A stretch of DNA of 64,000 nt. Source: Escherichia coli. Its GTDB lineage: Bacteria; Pseudomonadota; Gammaproteobacteria; Enterobacterales; Enterobacteriaceae. Of this stretch, positions 3,459 to 64,000 are shown piece after piece. Both the position numbers and the translations under genes were made by a program. The notes under the pieces are model-generated. The model was not told where the DNA came from and did no database searches. It saw nothing but the letters and a program-made list of their open reading frames with translations. Location of the stretch: the NCBI RefSeq assembly GCF_050320075.1, contig NZ_CP190018.1, one strand, 5' to 3'. How positions within the stretch are numbered: position 1 is the first letter of the stretch; each line of letters opens with the position of its first letter.

Positions 3459-3664
3459 AAAAAAAAGCACCGCAATTAGGCGGTGCTACATTAATCACTA
3501 TGGACAGACAGGGTAAATGTACAGGAAGTGAAAAAAGGTAGCTTTGCTACCATGGTCTGAATCGCAGACCAATTGCAAACACAACAACACAACATCACAA
3601 CCGTAAGCCAAAAGTTCACCAGAACACGCATTCCGATAAAACTTTTCGTTCCGGCTCAGGAAGT
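3459..3664 (-). ncRNA. gcvB: GcvB small regulatory RNA (Hfq-dependent, represses amino-acid and peptide transporters)
   Basis: Reverse complement begins ACTTCCTGAGCCGGAACGAAAAG and ends in hairpin GCACCGCCTAATTGCGGTGC plus T8; GU-rich stretch GTTGTGATGTTGTGTTGTTGTGTTTGC present; divergent from gcvA. Confidence 0.9.
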
Positions 3665-21833: not shown

Positions 21834-22200
21834 GTCGACAGGGAGTCAGACAACGAAGTGAACATCAGGATGATGACACTTCTGAAGGACACACCAGGAT
21901 GGTGTTTCAGGGAAAGGCTTCTGGATGAAGCGAAGAGGATGACGCAGGACGCGTTAAAGGACACCTCCAGGATGGAGAATGAGAACCGGTCAGGATGATT
22001 CGGTGGGTCAGGAAGGCCAGGGACACTTCAGGATGAAGTATCACATCGGGGTGGTGTGAGCAGGAAGCAATAGTTCAGGATGAACGATTGGCCGCAAGGC
22101 CAGAGGAAAAGTTGTCAAGGATGAGCAGGGAGCAACAAAAGTAGCTGGAATGCTGCGAAACGAACCGGGAGCACTGTGAATACAGTGCTCCCTTTTTTTA
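21834..22200 (+). ncRNA. csrB: CsrB sRNA (CsrA-sequestering)
   Basis: About 365 nt with reiterated CAGGATG/AGGATG/AGGA motifs (at least 8 exact AGGATG plus many GGA variants); ends in intrinsic terminator GGGAGCACTGTGAATACAGTGCTCCC plus T7 (22163-22199); 5' end approximate. Confidence 0.9.
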
Positions 22201-22244
22201 TTCCTGCTATCCTTCGCGGCAGTTTTTCTTATTGAGGTTGCTTT

Positions 22245-40657: not shown

Positions 40658-40950
40658 TATAAATGTCCCATTAAAGCTGGATAAATAAATTGACGGCGGC
40701 ATCGGTAATTTGAGATTCGTTATAATTAAAAACGAACACAGAAAAAATAAGTATAATTTTGGTGAATGTTTTTGACATGATTAAATCCCTTTACTTTATT
40801 TATTTCTGACATAATACGTTACTCCCTTTTATTATTAACGATCTGTTTCTCATTTTTCTTTAAACCTGCCTGTAACAGAATGTTAATAAGACATGATTGT
40901 TGTGGCAGGATCTGCAATAATTAACAATTATCCACTTCACAGAGAATGCT

Positions 40951-41622
40951 ATGCAGTACCCGATTAACGAGATGTTCCAGACCCTGCAAGGTGAGGGTTA
41001 CTTTACCGGCGTCCCCGCCATTTTTATTCGTTTACAGGGATGCCCGGTTGGCTGTGCCTGGTGCGACACCAAACACACCTGGGAAAAGCTTGAGGATCGG
41101 GAAGTCTCCCTTTTCAGCATTCTGGCGAAGACCAAAGAGAGTGATAAGTGGGGGGCGGCGAGCAGTGAAGACTTGCTGGCTGTCATTGGTCGCCAGGGAT
41201 ACACCGCGCGGCATGTGGTGATTACGGGTGGTGAGCCTTGCATTCATGATTTGCTGCCACTTACTGACCTGCTCGAAAAGAACGGTTTTAGCTGCCAGAT
41301 AGAAACCAGCGGTACTCATGAAGTGCGTTGTACGCCGAATACCTGGGTCACCGTGTCGCCAAAGCTAAATATGCGTGGTGGTTATGAAGTATTGTCGCAA
41401 GCCCTGGAGCGAGCTAACGAAATCAAACACCCAGTTGGACGCGTACGTGATATCGAAGCACTGGATGAATTGCTTGCGACGCTGACCGATGATAAACCGC
41501 GAGTCATTGCACTGCAGCCGATTAGCCAAAAGGATGATGCCACACGTTTGTGCATTGAAACCTGCATTGCGCGTAATTGGCGTTTGTCGATGCAAACACA
41601 TAAATATTTAAATATTGCCTGA
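40951..41622 (+). CDS. queE: 7-carboxy-7-deazaguanine synthase (radical SAM)
   Basis: 223-aa ORF with radical-SAM Cys motif (CPVGCAWCDTKHT); recognised as QueE (YgcF). Confidence 0.9.
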   Translation: MQYPINEMFQTLQGEGYFTGVPAIFIRLQGCPVGCAWCDTKHTWEKLEDREVSLFSILAKTKESDKWGAASSEDLLAVIGRQGYTARHVVITGGEPCIHDLLPLTDLLEKNGFSCQIETSGTHEVRCTPNTWVTVSPKLNMRGGYEVLSQALERANEIKHPVGRVRDIEALDELLATLTDDKPRVIALQPISQKDDATRLCIETCIARNWRLSMQTHKYLNIA

Positions 41623-41960
41623 TTACACATTTATAAGCGTTATAAATGGGTGGAACCTGTAAAGACTTCTACTCATTTATATTCTTTGTCGCCTCTAAAA
41701 AACCTCCATTTTGCCCATCCTGGACTAATCATTATCATTTTCTACAAATTCTGTGGCGTTAATTTTTCGTTGGAGTGAAAATTATTACGTCGGAGTTTGG
41801 TGGATTTTAGTCGGTATAGAATTACTTTAAATATTTGGCTTTTCAATCAATGAATTAAGTGCTCTTTAACATAATGGATGTGTTGTTTGTGTGTTTCTGT
41901 TAAGTTGGTAGATTGTGACTGACTTAAAAAATCAATAATTAATAATAGGTTATGTTTAGT
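41623..41960 (+). promoter_or_regulatory. CRISPR leader (AT-rich), inferred promoter side of the array
   Basis: 338-bp AT-rich non-coding region immediately 5' of the first consensus repeat; degenerate repeat lies at the opposite end of the array. Confidence 0.6.
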
Positions 41961-43209
41961 GAGTTCCCCGCGCCAGCGGGGATAAACCGTTTGCTGAGTG
42001 TGCATACACACTTGAACATCAGAGTTCCCCGCGCCAGCGGGGATAAACCGCTATCAGTAACAACCTGGTAAATATCGGTTTTGAGTTCCCCGCGCCAGCG
42101 GGGATAAACCGTTTTCGGGGCCATAAATGGCGCTCATTTATGTGAGTTCCCCGCGCCAGCGGGGATAAACCGGGAAAATAAACGCGTTATTCCTTGATGG
42201 GTGCGAGTTCCCCGCGCCAGCGGGGATAAACCGAGCAACAGGTATTTCATATGGCCTGCCGTGCTGAGTTCCCCGCGCCAGCGGGGATAAACCGGCCAGC
42301 GGCGCTGAGTACGACGACCTGATTAAGAGTTCCCCGCGCCAGCGGGGATAAACCGTCAATACAACAGCAATGCTGGAGCTGGAAAAAGAGTTCCCCGCGC
42401 CAGCGGGGATAAACCGTGGTGGGATAGCTGCTCTGCCAGCGTGTCGCGGAGTTCCCCGCGCCAGCGGGGATAAACCGTGGGCGCAGCTCATGTATTCCAA
42501 TAAGGATATGAGTTCCCCGCGCCAGCGGGGATAAACCGAGATTCGCGCAATGTACGGTAAAGACAGCACCGAGTTCCCCGCGCCAGCGGGGATAAACCGC
42601 CATTCTTGTTGTCGTTCATCAAGCGCAGGGGGAGTTTCCCGCGCCAGCGGGGATAAACCGTTTGTTTTGATGATTTATCAGTATATGAATTGGAGTTCCC
42701 CGCGCCAGCGGGGATAAACCGATTTTTGCGCGGCCTGCATGAAACCAGTGGCAAAGTTCCCCGCGCCAGCGGGGATAAACCGGTACCGTTGAGCAATGGT
42801 GGGTAAATGGTGCTGAGTTCCCCGCGCCAGCGGGGATAAACCGATTTAGATACGGCACACAGGAATGCGCTGGATGAGTTCCCCGCGCCAGCGGGGATAA
42901 ACCGCATGGGAGTCCAGATTACAAATTCCAGAATGGGAGTTCCCCGCGCCAGCGGGGATAAACCGCGCCAGTCTGAGGTTTTCCGGTCATACATCGTGAG
43001 TTCCCCGCGCCAGCGGGGATAAACCGACCGTTGCTACACATATGATCAGGCATGTGCCGAGTTCCCCGCGCCAGCGGGGATAAACCGGACGATGAGACGC
43101 CCTGGTGTGCCGCGTTCGTGAGTTCCCCGCGCCAGCGGGGATAAACCGCGTTTAGCTCCGCAATGTTGGATATCACTGATGAGTTCCCCGCACCAGCGGG
43201 AATAAACCA
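41961..43209 (+). CRISPR. type I-E CRISPR array, 21 repeats and 20 spacers
   Basis: 29-bp repeat GAGTTCCCCGCGCCAGCGGGGATAAACCG recurring with exact 61-bp periodicity (41961 + 61n); all spacers 32 bp and unique; last repeat (43181-43209) degenerate. Confidence 0.98.
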
Positions 43210-43680
43210 CCATATAACCCGTTATCTCTTTCTCAAGTTTTTATATTAGCAGTACTCGTATTAAGCAACATATCCACGTAACACCTCATGTTCAAAATAG
43301 CTCTCCATATATGAGAAGTTCACAATTATCGATACAAAAAATCAAATTTAATCAAAGTGTTATTTGTATAATCCTTAAACCGTTAAGAAATTTTAACATA
43401 TTATTTTTTTAATATTAATTAATGCCTGTTAATTTTTTCTTTAGAATAACAGTGTATTTTTTAAGCTTGTTATTCATTGATTAAGTAATAAATCTGGAAA
43501 TTTGTCTTTGTTTTGAGGCTAATGAGTGGTTTTACATAATCGCCTCTATACGCTGTTGATGAATAGTTCTTATGAATAAAGATATCCAGTTCATACTTTA
43601 AGTGAAAATTGATAAAGTGCGATTCGTATTGTCTTTTATTCTAAAGACATCGAGTGTAGTTAATATTCCTTGTAAAAACA

Positions 43681-43800
43681 GGGATAAACCGAACTAGTTA
43701 AAGTTTTTATTATGTTCCCTGCATCAGCGGGGATAAACCGGACTTGTTATCATTTTTTAAGTTGTCGAACTTATGTTCCCCGCGCCAGCGGGGATAACCA
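43681..43800 (+). CRISPR. remnant mini-array (partial repeat, two degenerate repeats, two spacers)
   Basis: GGGATAAACCG fragment (43681-43691), degenerate repeat ATGTTCCCTGCATCAGCGGGGATAAACCG (43712-43740), 32-bp spacer (43741-43772), degenerate repeat ATGTTCCCCGCGCCAGCGGGGATAACCA (43773-43800). Confidence 0.8.
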
Positions 43801-43846
43801 TTCAGGTATGTTCAGGCCGGGCAGTTTCCCGCCCGGTCTTCCTCAC

Positions 43847-45325
43847 TTACGCATTCGACCAGCTCTGGATCGAATCCGCATTCCCCAATTCCCCATGCAT
43901 CACTTCATACGATTTTTTCAGGATTACATCAGTATGTTTGGTTAACTCCTTGAAAATGCCTTTATTCATCGCGTTGTAGCGTTTGGCGTTGCTCTCAACA
44001 GGCATAAAGATATCTTTCACGCGAACCATTTTGTCGACAGCCGTTGCGTAATCCGGGTATAGCCCCAGACCTACCGCCGTATTAATCGCTGCCCCCAGGC
44101 TTGCACAACCATTAATGGCGTTACGGCGTGCCGGAAGGTTGAACACGTCGGCAAAAATCTGCATAAACAGATCGCTGTTCGAACCGCCGCCAGTAATGAT
44201 CACATGCTTTGCAAAGTGATTCATTTCATTACACATATTGTCGTAATTGTTCTTCAGCGTCAGCGCCACGCTTTCCAGTATCGAACGATATATCCATGCG
44301 TAATCCATGCTGGAATCAAAGCCAATCATAATCCCGCGTTTGTACGGTTCCCACGGATTGGTCAGCCAGTCCAGCACCGTCATCAGACCATTACAGCCTG
44401 GCGGCACACAAGACGCTTTTTTGTTGAGCAAATCTTCCGGTGAAAGATCCTGTGCTTTGGCATCCTGAATTAACGACTCGCCTAACATGTCGCGTAGCCA
44501 GCTCACCGTCCACATGCCTTTGCGAATACCGTAACCTTCATACAGCAAGGTTTGCGGAATAGAAGACATAATCGGCCAGTACGCTACCGGATCTTTCGGT
44601 AGTAATTTGCCGTTCATCATCAACGCGATGTAAGTGCCAAGAGAAATTACCGCAGTTTCATCATCCAGTAACCCGGCTCCCAGTGCTTCTACCGGTTTAT
44701 CACTGGTGGTACAAACAACCGGCAGCCCAGCCGGGAAATGTGTCGCCAGCGCGGCTTGAGGAGTGATATGCCCAAGAACAGTGCCCGGCATTTGCACATC
44801 AAACAGCATATGACGGGGGATATTAAACTTCTCCATGACTGCGGCATCTTCACTCCATGCCCAGGTCTTATAATCCACCGGCCACTGACCAAAATAGTTG
44901 GCGATATTGTCTTTAAACTCGCCGGTTAAGCGATGCGTCAGATAACCCGAAAAAGAGGTGACATATGCCACGTCAGGATTCGTATGTTCGTAAGGGCGTG
45001 TAACGCGTGCATCCTGCCAGCTAATCAACGGCGCAGCTGGCGTGCCATCGGCTTTCAATAACGCACGGCAGCAACGGATGGATCCCAGACCAATACCGAC
45101 AATATCTTCTTTATTTCCGGCAAACTGACTCATCAAATCGTGACCGGCAAAGCATAATGATGCCCATAAATCGTCGTCAGGATGTTCTGCGGTATCGGCA
45201 TCTGGCGTGTGCATCGGCTGCAATAAGCCTTTGCCTTCGCAAACCACATTACCTTCCAGATCGTACATCACCACTTTTGTGCTCTGACTTCCACCATCAA
45301 TCCCTATGATGTATTTTTTCGACAT
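43847..45325 (-). CDS. ygcE: FGGY-family carbohydrate kinase
   Basis: 492-aa ORF with FGGY kinase N- and C-terminal domain signatures. Confidence 0.85.
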   Translation of the reverse strand: MSKKYIIGIDGGSQSTKVVMYDLEGNVVCEGKGLLQPMHTPDADTAEHPDDDLWASLCFAGHDLMSQFAGNKEDIVGIGLGSIRCCRALLKADGTPAAPLISWQDARVTRPYEHTNPDVAYVTSFSGYLTHRLTGEFKDNIANYFGQWPVDYKTWAWSEDAAVMEKFNIPRHMLFDVQMPGTVLGHITPQAALATHFPAGLPVVCTTSDKPVEALGAGLLDDETAVISLGTYIALMMNGKLLPKDPVAYWPIMSSIPQTLLYEGYGIRKGMWTVSWLRDMLGESLIQDAKAQDLSPEDLLNKKASCVPPGCNGLMTVLDWLTNPWEPYKRGIMIGFDSSMDYAWIYRSILESVALTLKNNYDNMCNEMNHFAKHVIITGGGSNSDLFMQIFADVFNLPARRNAINGCASLGAAINTAVGLGLYPDYATAVDKMVRVKDIFMPVESNAKRYNAMNKGIFKELTKHTDVILKKSYEVMHGELGNADSIQSWSNA

Positions 45326-52350: not shown

Positions 52351-53124
<774 letters not shown>

Positions 53125-53228
53125 ATCAGCATACTTGTCCTTAGCCTTCTGCAGTGACAGCTGGTAGTACAGCGTGCTTCTGGCCAGCCCTGCAGCCTTT
53201 AACAGGTCAGACTGGCAGTGTCCGCACC

Positions 53229-53750
53229 TCAGGCTCCGGATGACTTTCGTTTTTTCTCCAGCTCCTGGCGCTTTTTTTCCAGGAGATGCTCCTGCATGGC
53301 TTTCAGATATGCATTTTCTGCGCGAAGATAACGTAGCTCATTCTTCATCTCTTCCGGCGTCATGTTTGCCTCGTTTTCATGGGTATCATCAGAACGGGTC
53401 ATGCTTTTCTCCTTCCTGCGCCTGATAAAGGCCTCATTACCAGATTTGCGGTAGCCTTTTATCCAGTTTTTAACCGTGTTGTGGCTGGGAATGTTAAACC
53501 GGGCAGCTACCCGGGGTAGAGACTCAGAATGCCCGAGAGCATAAAGAACCACGCAAAGTTTATCTTCAGGAGAATAGCTACGCTTGTGTCTGCAATCCAG
53601 TGCCCGAGGACCGTGAAGAAGAAAAAGATTAATCCAGTGTGAGAGGCTGGTGTGAGAAAGTTGAAAGAGTTTTGCCGTAGAAATGATGCCTGCATGACCA
53701 GCCAGGTAATGATTTACAGCGGCAAGTTTTACTTCAAATGAATGTTTCAT
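53229..53750 (-). CDS. IS3-family transposase OrfA (HTH DNA-binding, leucine-zipper region)
   Basis: ORF 53229..53759; likely ATG start at 53748-53750 (MKHSFEVKLAAVNHY) giving 173 aa. Confidence 0.85.
   Translation of the reverse strand: MKHSFEVKLAAVNHYLAGHAGIISTAKLFQLSHTSLSHWINLFLLHGPRALDCRHKRSYSPEDKLCVVLYALGHSESLPRVAARFNIPSHNTVKNWIKGYRKSGNEAFIRRRKEKSMTRSDDTHENEANMTPEEMKNELRYLRAENAYLKAMQEHLLEKKRQELEKKRKSSGA
53271..53278 (-). other. candidate -1 programmed ribosomal frameshift site (A AAA AAG)
   Basis: Minus-strand A7G run about 45 nt upstream of the orfA stop, at the orfA/orfB overlap. Confidence 0.6.
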
Positions 53751-61128: not shown

Positions 61129-61341
61129 ATTTTGCGAGCAGCATTCCTGATTTTAAACGTGAACGCCGCTGGAAGAATTATCAGGTATAGAATGGCGTTG
61201 GGTGCTTGAGGCTGTCTGGCGTTAAGCATTCGCGAGGTTCCAGATGGACAAAAGCCCCAGGCGATATTTCTATCAACCTGAGGCCAGCGTTCGAACCTAA
61301 GCAATTCGAATGTTAGTCTCTTCTTTGCAGGGAGGCAAGAC

Positions 61342-61494
61342 ATGCTGACAAAATATGCCCTTGTGGCAATCATCGTACTGTGTTGTACAGTACTGGGATT
61401 CACGCTGATGGTAGGCGACTCGTTGTGTGAGTTGAGTATCAGAGAACGTGGTATGGAGTTTAAGGCAGTTCTCGCTTACGAATCGAAGAAGTAG
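61342..61494 (+). CDS. Hok-family type I toxin (50 aa, HokE/HokX-like)
   Basis: ATG 61342 preceded by GGGAGG; product [50 protein letters not shown] has one TM helix and the conserved Hok C-terminal region; below the ORF-track size cutoff. Confidence 0.8.
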
Positions 61495-61688: not shown

Positions 61689-64000
61689 ATGCGTAAATAT
61701 CCTTTAAGTTTACTGAAGGATAAAAATATTGTGACTTTTTTTGATTTCTGGGGAAAAACCCGACGCGGCGAGAAAGACGGGGGCGACGACTATCACCTTC
61801 TTTGCTGGCATTCGCTGGATGTAGCCGCGATGGGCTATTTAATGGTTAAAAGCAATTGCTTCGGGCTGACTGACTATTTTCGTCAACTAGGTTTCGCTGA
61901 TACGGAGCAGGCAGCACAATTTTTCGCCTGGCTATTGTGCTGGCACGATACTGGAAAATTTGCCCGCTCTTTTCAGCAACTTTACCTGCACCCACAACTC
62001 AAGGTTCCGGAAGGCGCAAGAAAGAATTACGAAAAGATCTCTCATTCAACGCTGGGCTACTGGCTGTGGCATCATTATTTAAGTGAATACGAAGAATTGC
62101 TTCCTTCATCTTCACTCTCTCCGCGCAAACTTAAACGGGTGATGGAGATGTGGATGCCCATGACTACCGGGCATCATGGTCGGCCCCCTGACCGTATTGA
62201 TGAACTGGATAATTTTCTGCCTGAAGACAAAGCTGCCGCACGAGATTTTCTCCTTGAAATCAAGGTACTGTTTCCGCTCATCGAGATCCCCGCATTCTGG
62301 GATGATGACGAGGGCATTGAACTTTTAAAACAACTTTCCTGGTATATCTCTGCAACCGTCGTACTCGCAGACTGGACGGGATCGTCAACGCGGTTTTTTC
62401 CACGCGTTGCACAGGCAATGGATATTAAAGATTACTGGCAGAAGGCTTTAGTTCAGGCTCAAAACGCCTTAACCGTCTTTCCTCCAAAAGCACAAACCGC
62501 GCCTTTCACCGGAATTAATACGCTGTTTCCTTTTATTGAGCACCCGACACCGTTACAGCAAAAGGTGCTGGATCTGGATATCAGCCAGCCTGGGCCACAG
62601 TTATTTATTCTGGAGGATGTGACTGGCGCAGGTAAAACAGAAGCGGCGCTTATCCTGGCCCACAGGTTGATGGCTGCGGGGAAAGCACAGGGTTTGTTTT
62701 TTGGCCTGCCAACAATGGCAACGGCCAATGCCATGTACGATCGGCTGGTAAAAACCTGGCTTGCTTTCTATTCGCCAGAATCCCGCCCCAGCCTGGTGCT
62801 GGCACACAGTGCCCGCACATTAATGGACCGCTTTAATGAATCACTCTGGTCCGGTGATTTAGTCGGGTCAGAAGAACCGGATGAACAAGCGTTCAGTCAG
62901 GGATGTGCGGCCTGGTTTGCCGACAGTAACAAGAAGGCGTTGCTGGCTGAAATTGGCGTCGGCACGCTGGATCAGGCGATGATGGCGGTGATGCCGTTTA
63001 AACATAATAATCTGCGGCTTCTGGGACTGAGTAACAAAATCCTGCTGGCTGATGAGATCCATGCCTGTGACGCTTACATGTCGTGCATTCTTGAAGGATT
63101 GATTGAGCGGCAGGCGCGTGGAGGAAACAGCGTTATTTTGCTTTCTGCCACGTTATCTCAACAGCAGCGCGACAAACTCGTTGCTGCCTTTGCGCGTGGT
63201 GCAGAGGGCCAGCAAGAAGCTCCGTTCCTGGAAAAGGATGATTACCCCTGGCTGACGCACGTTACGAAATCGGATGTGCATTCACACCGGGTAGCAACGC
63301 GCAAAGACGTTGAGCGTAGCGTGAGCGTGGGTTGGCTTCATAGCGAACAAGAATGTATTGCGCGTATCGAATCGGCAGTAAGTCAGGGGAAATGCATCGC
63401 CTGGATCCGGAATTCTGTCGATGACGCTATTAAGGTTTATCGTCAGTTGCTTGCCCGCGGCGTCATTCCTGCTTCCAGCCTTTCTCTGTTTCATAGCCGC
63501 TTTGCTTTTAGCGATCGCCAGCGAATTGAAACGGAAACGCTGGCACGCTTCGGTAAAAGTTGTAGTTTACAGAGATCATCGCAAGTCATTGTTTGTACAC
63601 AAGTAATTGAACAAAGTGTGGATATTGACCTGGACGAAATGATATCCGACCTGGCCCCTGTTGATTTGCTGATCCAACGGGCGGGGCGATTACAGCGGCA
63701 TATCCGCGATATTAATGGTCAGTTAAAGCGTGACGGAAAAGACGAGCGTTCCCCTCCTGAATTGCTGATTCTGGCCCCCGTCTGGGACGACGCTCCAGGT
63801 GACGAATGGTTCGGCAGTGCCATGCGTAACAGTGCATATGTCTATCCCGATCATGGACGAATCTGGCTGACGCAGCGTGTACTGCGTGAGCAAGGCGCGA
63901 TTCAAATGCCACACGCAGCCCGCCTTCTTATTGAATCAGTCTACGGTGAGGACGTGGTAATGCCGGAAGGATTTGCCCGCAGCGAGCAGGAACAAGTGGG
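61689..64000 (+). CDS. cas3: type I-E Cas3 (HD nuclease plus DExH helicase), 3' end outside window
   Basis: Frame open from ATG 61689 (alternative GTG 61731 with AGGA upstream) to the window end; HD-domain motifs (HLLCWHSLDVAAMG, LLCWHDTGKF), Walker A GAGKTEAA, DExH-like LADEIHACD. Confidence 0.9.
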   Translation, partial: MRKYPLSLLKDKNIVTFFDFWGKTRRGEKDGGDDYHLLCWHSLDVAAMGYLMVKSNCFGLTDYFRQLGFADTEQAAQFFAWLLCWHDTGKFARSFQQLYLHPQLKVPEGARKNYEKISHSTLGYWLWHHYLSEYEELLPSSSLSPRKLKRVMEMWMPMTTGHHGRPPDRIDELDNFLPEDKAAARDFLLEIKVLFPLIEIPAFWDDDEGIELLKQLSWYISATVVLADWTGSSTRFFPRVAQAMDIKDYWQKALVQAQNALTVFPPKAQTAPFTGINTLFPFIEHPTPLQQKVLDLDISQPGPQLFILEDVTGAGKTEAALILAHRLMAAGKAQGLFFGLPTMATANAMYDRLVKTWLAFYSPESRPSLVLAHSARTLMDRFNESLWSGDLVGSEEPDEQAFSQGCAAWFADSNKKALLAEIGVGTLDQAMMAVMPFKHNNLRLLGLSNKILLADEIHACDAYMSCILEGLIERQARGGNSVILLSATLSQQQRDKLVAAFARGAEGQQEAPFLEKDDYPWLTHVTKSDVHSHRVATRKDVERSVSVGWLHSEQECIARIESAVSQGKCIAWIRNSVDDAIKVYRQLLARGVIPASSLSLFHSRFAFSDRQRIETETLARFGKSCSLQRSSQVIVCTQVIEQSVDIDLDEMISDLAPVDLLIQRAGRLQRHIRDINGQLKRDGKDERSPPELLILAPVWDDAPGDEWFGSAMRNSAYVYPDHGRIWLTQRVLREQGAIQMPHAARLLIESVYGEDVVMPEGFARSEQEQV

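What the first reader, a model, noticed from the sequence alone, without database searches (positions are those of the whole stretch)
41961..43209. Large type I-E CRISPR array (21 repeats, 20 unique 32-bp spacers) with leader on the queE side
The repeat GAGTTCCCCGCGCCAGCGGGGATAAACCG recurs with exact 61-bp periodicity. The terminal repeat (43181-43209, GAGTTCCCCGCACCAGCGGGAATAAACCA) is degenerate, which places the leader at 41623-41960. The array is longer than what I recall for this locus in K-12 laboratory strains, so the spacer content is a strain-specific record of past invaders.
Basis: seen in the sequence. Interest (0 to 1): 0.6.

Follow-up and report, generated by a model that had tools for sequence, protein, structure and literature searches.

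The report
Known E. coli type I-E CRISPR array
This is the well-known second CRISPR array of Escherichia coli (between queE and ygcE), here with 20 spacers, at least eight of them copied from phages and plasmids; it is real and correctly read, but ordinary and already annotated in public genomes.

Summary
There are 21 copies of a 29-nt repeat at 41961-43209 on the + strand, with a strict 61-nt period and 20 different 32-nt spacers. The last repeat is degenerate. A 338-nt, 31% G+C leader lies on the queE side.

NCBI's annotation of a near-identical genome (E. coli YZLc1-3, chicken faeces) marks a CRISPR at the same coordinates. This is the CRISPR-II locus (array CRISPR2.3) of E. coli. K-12 has only 6 spacers there and shares none.

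A complete type I-E cas operon starts 18.5 kb downstream; cas3 runs off the window end. It is the common non-K-12 variant of these genes.

Eight spacers match temperate phages, a prophage or plasmids. All eight protospacers carry the type I-E motif AAG or ATG.

The "strain-specific" claim holds only for the combination of spacers. Every spacer also occurs in other E. coli arrays, and 332 of 5,426 genomes carry at least one of the 20 sequences, nearly all within CRISPR arrays. The window array looks like a common array of at least 27 spacers that has lost internal spacers.

Novelty: already known. Interest: low.

The parts
40951..41622 (+). queE (ygcF), upstream flanking gene; its stop codon marks the start of the leader
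   Evidence: ORF list; PGAP annotation of the near-identical record
41623..41960 (+). Leader of the array (leader 2.3): 338 nt, 31% G+C, non-coding
   Evidence: Composition. 306/338 identical to the K-12 leader at the same site. Shares the blocks CTCTTTAA..ATAA.GGA and GTTGGTAGATTGT and the terminal TTAGT with the leader of the cas-adjacent array
41930..41942 (+). IHF-like site AATCAATAATTAA, 1 mismatch to WATCAANNNNTTR, at -31 to -19 from the first repeat; a perfect match lies further upstream at 41845-41857
   Evidence: Pattern scan. The position falls in the -9 to -35 window reported for the K-12 leader (PMC10011333). Binding was not tested
41961..43209 (+). CRISPR array (CRISPR2.3 of the CRISPR-II locus): 21 repeats of 29 nt and 20 spacers of 32 nt
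   Evidence: PGAP 'CRISPR' feature at identical coordinates
41990..42021 (+). Spacer 1. Protospacer 32/32 in the 110-kb non-mobilizable E. coli plasmid p009_B and 31/32 in phage D6 and the P22-like phage JEP4 (the matched gene is annotated Eae in JEP4 and hypothetical in p009_B and D6); PAM ATG
42051..42082 (+). Spacer 2. Protospacer 29/32 in a 37-kb Klebsiella plasmid (read directly, PAM ATG) and a comparable BLAST hit in a 33-kb Salmonella plasmid (not read); the Klebsiella target is a zincin-like metallopeptidase gene
42112..42143 (+). Spacer 3. Protospacer 32/32 in four ~31-kb plasmids from chicken or chicken meat (pGF50-E and relatives), intergenic; PAM ATG. The spacer is also present in 14 chromosomal arrays
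42173..42204 (+). Spacer 4. Protospacer 32/32 in a tail-protein gene of the prophage next to zinT in E. coli GF43; PAM ATG
   Evidence: 30/32 in strain E62
42234..42265 (+). Spacer 5. Protospacer 30/32 in phiV10 (read directly, PAM AAG); BLAST reports the same 93.8% match in HK629 and O157 typing phages 9 and 10
42356..42387 (+). Spacer 7. Protospacer 32/32 in the tail-fibre gene of the same GF43 prophage; PAM ATG
42632..42660 (+). Repeat 12, variant C6T. It keeps the hairpin as a U-G pair and always follows spacer 11 in related arrays
42754..42782 (+). Repeat 14, variant G1A, outside the hairpin. It follows spacer 13 in related arrays
43027..43058 (+). Spacer 18. Protospacer 29/32 in the same GF43 tail-fibre gene, on the same strand and 365 nt from the spacer 7 target; PAM AAG
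43088..43119 (+). Spacer 19. Protospacer 30/32 in the gene between holin and Rz of Aeromonas phage phiARM81ld (the plasmid homologues that match this spacer are annotated TIGR02594 family); PAM AAG
43181..43209 (+). Degenerate terminal repeat GAGTTCCCCGCACCAGCGGGAATAAACCA. G21A breaks the base pair at the foot of the hairpin
   Evidence: identical in 12 of the 13 related arrays examined (Ch1 was not parsed to its end)
43210..43662 (+). AT-rich trailer between the two arrays; conserved in K-12
43663..43801 (+). Vestigial array CRISPR2.2: three degenerate repeats (43663, 43712, 43773) with spacers of 20 and 32 nt; both spacers are identical in K-12
   Evidence: nomenclature from PMC3903273
43847..45325 (-). 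ygcE, downstream flanking gene
61689..64000 (+). cas3 (first 770 of 899 codons; runs off the window), the first gene of the cognate type I-E cas operon, preceded by hok/sok
   Evidence: PGAP annotation. NCBIfam cas3_core 225 bits and cas3_HD 89 bits, both above cut-off. 30% identical to K-12 Cas3

Best explanation
This is the CRISPR2.3 array of the E. coli CRISPR-II locus (queE/ygcF to ygcE). [quoted passage not shown]

**Shown here**
- The repeat-spacer anatomy and the 7-bp hairpin with a 4-nt loop in each repeat.
- An AT-rich leader homologous to the K-12 leader, and a degenerate terminal repeat.
- An intact cas3-casA-casB-cas7-cas5-cas6e-cas1-cas2 operon with a second array 18.5 kb away, seen in the near-identical genome.
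- Eight spacers copied from temperate phages, a prophage and plasmids, each next to an AAG or ATG motif.
- Spacer order and content that fit inheritance from a common array of at least 27 spacers, with internal spacer-repeat units lost in different lineages.

**Inferred from established type I-E biology**
- The array is transcribed from a promoter in the leader.
- Cas6e cuts each repeat after the hairpin. This yields 61-nt crRNAs: an 8-nt 5' handle AUAAACCG, a 32-nt spacer and a 21-nt 3' hairpin.
- Cascade loaded with these crRNAs finds PAM-flanked protospacers and recruits Cas3 to degrade the invader.
- Cas1-Cas2 with IHF adds new spacers at the leader-repeat junction.
- Expression is probably limited by H-NS, as in K-12.

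The cas genes are the common E1 ('O157-type') variant, which accepts both AAG and ATG. This fits the 5 ATG and 3 AAG PAMs found.
For: - **Array and chance expectation:**. An independent PGAP CRISPR call sits at the same coordinates.
- **Hairpin:** -15.1 kcal/mol, z = -3.6. It is kept by the C6T variant and weakened in the terminal repeat.
- **Position and leader:** orthologous position, leader and trailer in K-12, with the leader 90.5% identical.
- **cas genes:** the full cas operon plus CRISPR2.1 (10 repeats) in NZ_CP123240.1. Cas3 domains score above the NCBIfam cut-offs. The E1 variant is indicated by Cas3 at 30%, Cas6e at 27% and Cas1 at 85% identity to K-12 and by the adjacent hok/sok (PMC3903273).
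- **Protospacers and PAM:** S1, S2, S5, S19, S3, S4, S7 and S18. All 8 have AAG or ATG, against a chance rate of about 1/32 each. The E1 variant accepts CTT and CAT, which are AAG and ATG on the other strand (PMC3737337).
- **Polarity:** trailer-end spacers S18-S20 are the most widely shared, and many genomes share only S20. The only single-array spacer found at the leader end is n31 of strain KE55.
- **Common ancestry:** spacer order across 14 arrays merges without conflict.
Against: - Nothing contradicts the identification.
- Activity is untested. No promoter stood out above chance in the leader (7 sites found against 4.9 expected).
- No spacer is private to this genome, so there is no sign of acquisition since it diverged from its relatives.
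- Twelve of 20 spacers have no match outside CRISPR arrays in the collections searched.
- Rfam 15 gave no CRISPR repeat family hit.
- The cas operon beyond cas3 lies outside the window. It is read from a record that differs from the window at 2 of 43,001 bases, not from the window itself.
Confidence: 0.95

Rival explanations
1. Fossil array. The array is a silent, inherited relic that no longer acquires spacers or protects the cell, and it changes only by losing spacers.
For: All 20 spacers are shared with other genomes from several hosts and continents. Differences from relatives are internal deletions. Published work describes E. coli arrays as stable and H-NS-silenced, with diversity driven by deletion (PMC10910852, PMC10011333).
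Against: The cas operon is intact and the repeats are nearly uniform. The leader-proximal spacers S1 and S3 match present-day plasmids at 32/32, and S4 and S7 match a present-day prophage at 32/32, all with correct PAMs. In the 5,426-genome search the source chromosome matched only at its own array, so it carries no exact protospacer elsewhere.
Confidence: 0.35
2. Strain-specific record. The spacers were acquired by this strain itself, with the newest ones next to the leader.
For: The exact 20-spacer combination occurs in only one of 5,426 complete genomes.
Against: S1 and S2 are present in 10 of the 13 related arrays examined. S3 is in 14 chromosomal arrays. Every other spacer is in at least one relative. 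The window lacks n34, n30, n32, n27, n28 and n29, which relatives carry at internal positions.
Confidence: 0.03
3. Opposite polarity. The leader lies on the ygcE side and the array is read on the minus strand.
For: The 454-nt stretch after the array is also AT-rich.
Against: The repeat reads in the crRNA sense of K-12 on the + strand. The degenerate repeat abuts the ygcE side. The queE-side sequence is homologous to the K-12 leader and shares motifs with the CRISPR2.1 leader. PAMs lie 5' of the protospacers in + orientation. Shared spacers cluster at the ygcE end.
Confidence: 0.01
4. Not a CRISPR. The repeats could be another interspersed repeat (REP/BIME), a minisatellite, coding repeats or an assembly artefact.
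For: Three ORFs of more than 100 aa lie on the minus strand inside the array.
Against: The spacers are unrelated to one another and several derive from mobile elements. The same locus is present in thousands of complete genomes. PGAP annotates no gene there, and the ORFs are by-products of the repeat period.
Confidence: 0.005

Closest known systems
E. coli K-12 MG1655 CRISPR-II locus (array CRISPR2.3, often called 'CRISPR-2', between ygcE and ygcF/queE)
   Same: Same chromosomal site and the same flanking genes. The leader is 90.5% identical. The trailer and the vestigial CRISPR2.2 array, including its spacers, are the same. Repeat length (29 nt) and spacer length (32 nt) are the same.
   Different: K-12 has 7 repeats and 6 spacers and shares none with the window. 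Six of its seven repeats begin GTG instead of GAG. Its terminal repeat differs from the consensus only at the last base. Its cas operon is the minor E2 variant, with Cas3 30% and Cas6e 27% identical to this strain's.
CRISPR2.3 arrays of the same spacer group in other E. coli (for example strains Z142-4, 144, F1140, 746, Ecol_545, C1)
   Same: Identical leader. The degenerate terminal repeat is identical in 12 of the 13 arrays (Ch1 was not parsed to its end). Spacers are shared in the same order and the same repeat variants are linked to S11 and S13. Sixteen genomes hold at least 80% of the window's spacers.
   Different: Each array lacks a different subset of a common series of at least 27 spacers. 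The window uniquely combines S3 with S4-S10 and lacks n34, n30, n32, n27, n28 and n29.
Type I-E system of E. coli O157:H7 (cas-E1 / 'cas-EO' variant; Diez-Villasenor 2013, Almendros 2014)
   Same: hok/sok lies beside cas3. The cas-adjacent array uses GTG-type repeats. Both AAG and ATG PAMs are used, as reported for that variant (PMC3737337, PMC3903273).
   Different: I made no direct sequence comparison with O157:H7. The assignment rests on divergence from K-12 and on the markers published for the variant.

Membership tests
Type I-E CRISPR array (E. coli CRISPR-II / CRISPR2.3) | Regularly spaced direct repeats of about 29 nt separated by unique spacers of about 32 nt | tested here: met
   21 repeats with a 61-nt period and 20 distinct 32-nt spacers; 0 matches expected by chance
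Type I-E CRISPR array (E. coli CRISPR-II / CRISPR2.3) | Repeat of the E. coli type 2 / I-E sequence class, with the stem-loop recognised by Cas6e | tested here: met
   The repeat differs from the K-12 CRISPR2.3 repeat at one base, outside the stem. Predicted 7-bp stem with a GCCA loop, -15.1 kcal/mol. Cas6e binding itself was not tested
Type I-E CRISPR array (E. coli CRISPR-II / CRISPR2.3) | Location between ygcF (queE) and ygcE, with the leader next to queE | tested here: met
   Annotation and ORFs; leader 306/338 identical to K-12; locus definition in PMC3903273
Type I-E CRISPR array (E. coli CRISPR-II / CRISPR2.3) | Cognate type I-E cas genes in the genome (cas3, cse1, cse2, cas7, cas5, cas6e, cas1, cas2) | tested here: met
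   cas3 starts at window 61689. All eight genes are annotated as intact in the near-identical record. Only cas3 is partly inside the window
Type I-E CRISPR array (E. coli CRISPR-II / CRISPR2.3) | Protospacers flanked 5' by the I-E PAM (AAG, or AWG for the E1 variant), with the final G matching the last repeat base | tested here: met
   8 of 8 identified protospacers: ATG for S1, S2, S3, S4, S7 and AAG for S5, S18, S19
Type I-E CRISPR array (E. coli CRISPR-II / CRISPR2.3) | Polarised growth: old shared spacers at the trailer end, variable spacers at the leader end, degenerate last repeat | tested here: met
   S18-S20 are the most widely shared and many genomes share S20 alone. The only single-array spacer at the leader end is n31 of KE55. 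The terminal repeat has 3 changes
Type I-E CRISPR array (E. coli CRISPR-II / CRISPR2.3) | Transcription from the leader and processing into 61-nt crRNAs | not testable with these tools
   The consensus promoter scan was not above chance. The K-12 start site about 95 nt upstream of the first repeat (PMC10011333) would map near window 41866 by alignment; this is inference only
Type I-E CRISPR array (E. coli CRISPR-II / CRISPR2.3) | Interference against matching invaders, and acquisition of new spacers | not testable with these tools
   Needs experiments. No spacer private to this genome was found

The most novel reading that the evidence does not exclude
The array may hold a natural trace of primed adaptation by the E1 variant of the E. 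coli type I-E system. An old spacer with three mismatches (S18) and two younger perfect spacers (S7, S4) all target the same strand of the tail module of one prophage family. S3 and its former neighbour n34 both target the same strand of one ~31-kb poultry-associated plasmid, about 650 nt apart. This would mean the system has worked in the wild against these elements, in a species where natural CRISPR activity is still debated.
Probability: 0.35. Interest if true: 0.3.

Novelty: already known. Interest (0 to 1): 0.1.

Why it matters
It matters little beyond confirmation. The locus, its leader, its repeat, its PAM and its mode of evolution are textbook material for E. coli, and this exact array is already annotated in RefSeq. 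Its practical uses are as a typing marker for this spacer group and as a small list of targets: phage-plasmids of the D6 and 110-kb type, lambdoid and P22-like phages, a prophage with a P2-like tail next to zinT, and ~31-kb plasmids from poultry isolates. That list could be used to test whether the common E1 variant of the E. coli system is active in nature.

Tried and rejected
- **Rfam.** A whole-window scan at gathering thresholds and a permissive scan of 41600-43900 gave no CRISPR repeat family, only chance-level hits. This is uninformative rather than negative.
- **Tandem Repeats Finder.** It reported only two partial rows because the spacers are unrelated. It is not a suitable CRISPR caller.
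- **Promoter and terminator scan.** The leader showed nothing above the shuffled expectation, so I did not assign a promoter.
- **Unmatched spacers.** S6, S8-S17 and S20 gave no match outside CRISPR arrays in 50,697 phage records, 72,556 plasmids or 5,426 E. coli genomes at E up to 10.
- **GF43 prophage.** S1, S5 and S19 are not in it within 3 mismatches, so not all phage-derived spacers come from one element.
- **Weak hits.** BLAST hits to Mycobacterium, Pseudomonas, Streptomyces, Caulobacter, Vibrio and Klebsiella phages (E from 2 to 8, 20-37 nt) were treated as chance.
- **S20 in a 4.9-Mb 'plasmid'.** This 100% hit is a mislabelled chromosome carrying the same array, not a target.
- **S3 as a private spacer.** It first looked private to the window among ten relatives. 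A dedicated search found it in 14 arrays, so that idea was dropped.
- **Technical limit.** Most fetched loci did not reach the Python sandbox. Spacer parsing therefore used alignment files, and the GF43 prophage could be searched only spacer by spacer.
- **Not run.** I did not scan the viral or metagenome contig collections for the unmatched spacers.

Full report
**1. The observation**

The sequence at 41961-43209 contains 21 copies of a 29-nt repeat on the + strand. Each copy starts exactly 61 nt after the previous one. Eighteen copies equal GAGTTCCCCGCGCCAGCGGGGATAAACCG. Repeat 12 (42632) carries C6T and repeat 14 (42754) carries G1A.

In 100 dinucleotide-preserving shuffles of the window, no match to this pattern occurred. 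The 20 spacers are all 32 nt and all different; the closest pair differs at 15 positions. Tandem Repeats Finder saw only two fragments, as expected for an array with unrelated spacers.

An independent CRISPR call exists. The window from 21000 to 64000 differs at only 2 of 43,001 bases from E. coli YZLc1-3 (NZ_CP123240.1, chicken faeces, Yangzhou). NCBI's pipeline annotates a 'CRISPR' direct repeat there at precisely the window coordinates 41961-43209.

**2. Where it sits**

The array lies between queE (ygcF; 40951-41622, +) and ygcE (43847-45325, -). This is the CRISPR-II locus of E. coli. The literature places array CRISPR2.3, with its leader, next to ygcF. It places a small array, CRISPR2.2, about 0.5 kb further on (PMC3903273).

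Both are present here. The 21-repeat array is CRISPR2.3. Three degenerate repeats at 43663, 43712 and 43773 are CRISPR2.2. K-12 MG1655 has the same leader (306/338 identical), the same trailer and the same vestigial array, including its two spacers. Its CRISPR2.3 has only 7 repeats and 6 spacers, and none is shared with the window.

**3. The cognate cas genes**

An Rfam sok match (61200-61357) and a hok gene precede cas3. cas3 starts at 61689 and runs off the window end. The 770 residues inside the window hit cas3_core and cas3_HD above the NCBIfam cut-offs.

In the near-identical genome the operon continues as casA, casB, cas7e, cas5e, cas6e, cas1e and cas2e. All are annotated as intact. A 10-repeat array (CRISPR2.1) and iap follow.

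These proteins are far from those of K-12: Cas3 30%, Cas6e 27% and Cas1 85% identical. Together with the adjacent hok/sok, this identifies the common E1 ('O157-type') variant rather than the minor K-12 E2 variant (PMC3903273).

**4. Polarity**

Five lines of evidence agree that the leader is on the queE side.

- The repeat reads in crRNA sense on the + strand.
- The degenerate repeat is at the ygcE end.
- The 338 nt after the queE stop are 31% G+C, against 51% for the window. They are homologous to the K-12 leader. They also share conserved blocks with the leaders of the cas-adjacent arrays of both this strain and K-12.
- An IHF-like site (AATCAATAATTAA, one mismatch to the consensus) lies at -31 to -19 from the first repeat. 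This is inside the -9 to -35 window described for K-12 (PMC10011333).
- Both the PAM orientation and the distribution of shared spacers, described below, fit only this orientation.

I could not assign a promoter, because consensus matches in the leader do not exceed chance. The K-12 start site, about 95 nt upstream of the first repeat (PMC10011333), would map near 41866. That position is inference only.

**5. Repeat structure**

As RNA the repeat folds into a 7-bp stem with a GCCA loop (-15.1 kcal/mol, z = -3.6). The C6T variant keeps the stem as a U-G pair. The G1A change lies outside the stem. The terminal repeat loses the pair at the foot of the stem.

By established type I-E biology, Cas6e cuts after this hairpin. 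The products would be 61-nt crRNAs with an 8-nt AUAAACCG 5' handle. This step is inferred, not shown here.

**6. What the spacers record**

I searched the concatenated spacers against phage, plasmid and E. coli genome collections and then read the flanks of each hit. Eight spacers have targets.

| Spacer | Match | Target | PAM |
|---|---|---|---|
| S1 | 32/32; 31/32 | 110-kb non-mobilizable E. coli plasmid p009_B; phage D6 and P22-like phage JEP4 (gene annotated Eae in JEP4) | ATG |
| S2 | 29/32 | 37-kb Klebsiella plasmid, zincin-like metallopeptidase gene (a 33-kb Salmonella plasmid gave a comparable BLAST hit that I did not read) | ATG |
| S3 | 32/32 | four ~31-kb plasmids from chicken or chicken meat | ATG |
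| S4 | 32/32 | tail-protein gene of a prophage next to zinT in E. coli GF43 | ATG |
| S5 | 30/32 | phiV10 (HK629 and O157 typing phages gave the same BLAST identity) | AAG |
| S7 | 32/32 | tail-fibre gene of the same GF43 prophage | ATG |
| S18 | 29/32 | same tail-fibre gene, same strand, 365 nt from the S7 target | AAG |
| S19 | 30/32 | gene between holin and Rz in an Aeromonas phage | AAG |

All eight protospacers are preceded by AAG or ATG. The chance rate is about 1 in 32 each, and the G was not part of the search query. The predominance of ATG fits the E1 variant, which accepts CAT as well as CTT on the other strand; K-12 uses CTT only (PMC3737337). The other twelve spacers have no match outside CRISPR arrays in these collections.

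**7. Is the content strain-specific?**

Only as a combination. Of 5,426 complete E. coli genomes, 332 carry at least one of the 20 spacer sequences, nearly all within CRISPR arrays. Sixteen hold at least 80% of them, and only YZLc1-3 holds all 20.

I parsed 13 related arrays. Every window spacer recurs in at least one of them. The order of spacers across all 14 arrays merges without conflict into one series:

S1 S2 S3 (n31) n34 n30 n32 n27 n28 S4-S10 n29 S11 S12 n33 S13-S20

The window lacks n34, n30, n32, n27, n28 and n29. S3 looked private at first, but it is in 14 chromosomal arrays.

The C6T repeat always follows S11 and the G1A repeat always follows S13. Losses therefore remove whole spacer-repeat units. 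Trailer-end spacers are the most widely shared, and many genomes share only S20. The only single-array spacer found at the leader end is n31 of strain KE55.

This matches published descriptions of E. coli arrays as stable, clonally inherited and diversified mainly by deletion (PMC3903273, PMC10910852).

**8. A possible trace of priming**

S18 (three mismatches) and S7 and S4 (both perfect) hit the same strand of the tail module of one prophage. S3 and n34, its neighbour in three related arrays, hit the same strand of one ~31-kb plasmid about 650 nt apart, both with ATG.

Same-strand clustering around an imperfect older spacer is the signature of primed adaptation in type I-E systems (PMC10011333). 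With so few spacers the pattern is suggestive, not proven.

**9. Verdict**

The finding is a correct reading of a well-known element: the cas-distal CRISPR array of a complete type I-E system of the common E. coli variant. It is real, correctly oriented and longer than in K-12, and it does record past mobile elements. It is already annotated in RefSeq. Its spacers are inherited within a lineage rather than acquired by this strain. Whether the system is expressed and active in this strain cannot be decided from sequence.

Noticed in passing
window 43663-43801: Vestigial array CRISPR2.2: three degenerate repeats with spacers of 20 and 32 nt; both spacers are identical in K-12. Its most diverged repeat (AUAUUCCUUGUAAAAACAGGGAUAAACCG) still folds into the same 7-bp hairpin through changes on both arms of the stem (-7.9 kcal/mol).
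   Followed up: partly
window 41990-43119 (spacers S1-S5, S7, S18, S19): PAM usage is 5 ATG to 3 AAG. The leader-proximal spacers S1-S4 all have ATG, while the old S18 and S19 have AAG. This fits the E1 cas variant, which accepts both, unlike K-12.
   Followed up: partly
L025 1872-1903, 4001-4032, 4366-4397 (E. coli GF43 prophage next to zinT): Three spacers of the array (S4, S7, S18) target the same strand of the tail module of one prophage, which has a lambda-like head and a P2-like tail. The oldest of the three has 3 mismatches. The pattern resembles priming.
   Followed up: partly
L019 3001-3032 and 3653-3684 (plasmid pGF50-E, 31 kb, chicken meat): S3 and the spacer n34 both match this plasmid 32/32 with an ATG PAM, on the same strand about 650 nt apart. 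n34 follows S3 in strains Ecol_545, C1 and CFSAN061763 and is lost in the window. The source strain of the window is also from chicken.
   Followed up: partly
window 42632-42660 and 42754-42782: The two variant repeats are linked to their upstream spacers across related arrays: C6T always follows S11 and G1A always follows S13. They are absent when that spacer is absent, so deletions remove spacer-repeat units.
   Followed up: yes
window 52402-53750: An IS3-family transposase with a programmed frameshift is annotated between ygcQ and ygcP in the near-identical record.
   Followed up: no
window 61200-61494: A hok/sok toxin-antitoxin module (Rfam sok, 111.7 bits; Hok/Gef CDS at 61342-61494) lies between cysH and cas3. 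It is a published marker of strains that do not carry the K-12 cas variant.
   Followed up: partly
L002 9052-9629 (same genome, outside the window): The cas-adjacent array CRISPR2.1 has 10 repeats beginning GTG, some with C13T, whereas the window array uses GAG. K-12 shows the opposite pairing of repeat types between its two arrays.
   Followed up: partly
window 42138-42994, minus strand: Three ORFs of 118-168 aa lie entirely inside the array. They are by-products of the repeat period and are not annotated as genes.
   Followed up: yes
window 21843-22202 and 3459-3664: The CsrB sRNA (382.9 bits) and the GcvB sRNA (199 bits) are present in full length.
   Followed up: no
window 40671-40812, minus strand: A short CDS between ygcG and queE, at the position of K-12 yqcG, is annotated as a frameshifted pseudogene in this lineage and in all the related strains fetched with enough upstream flank.
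   Followed up: no
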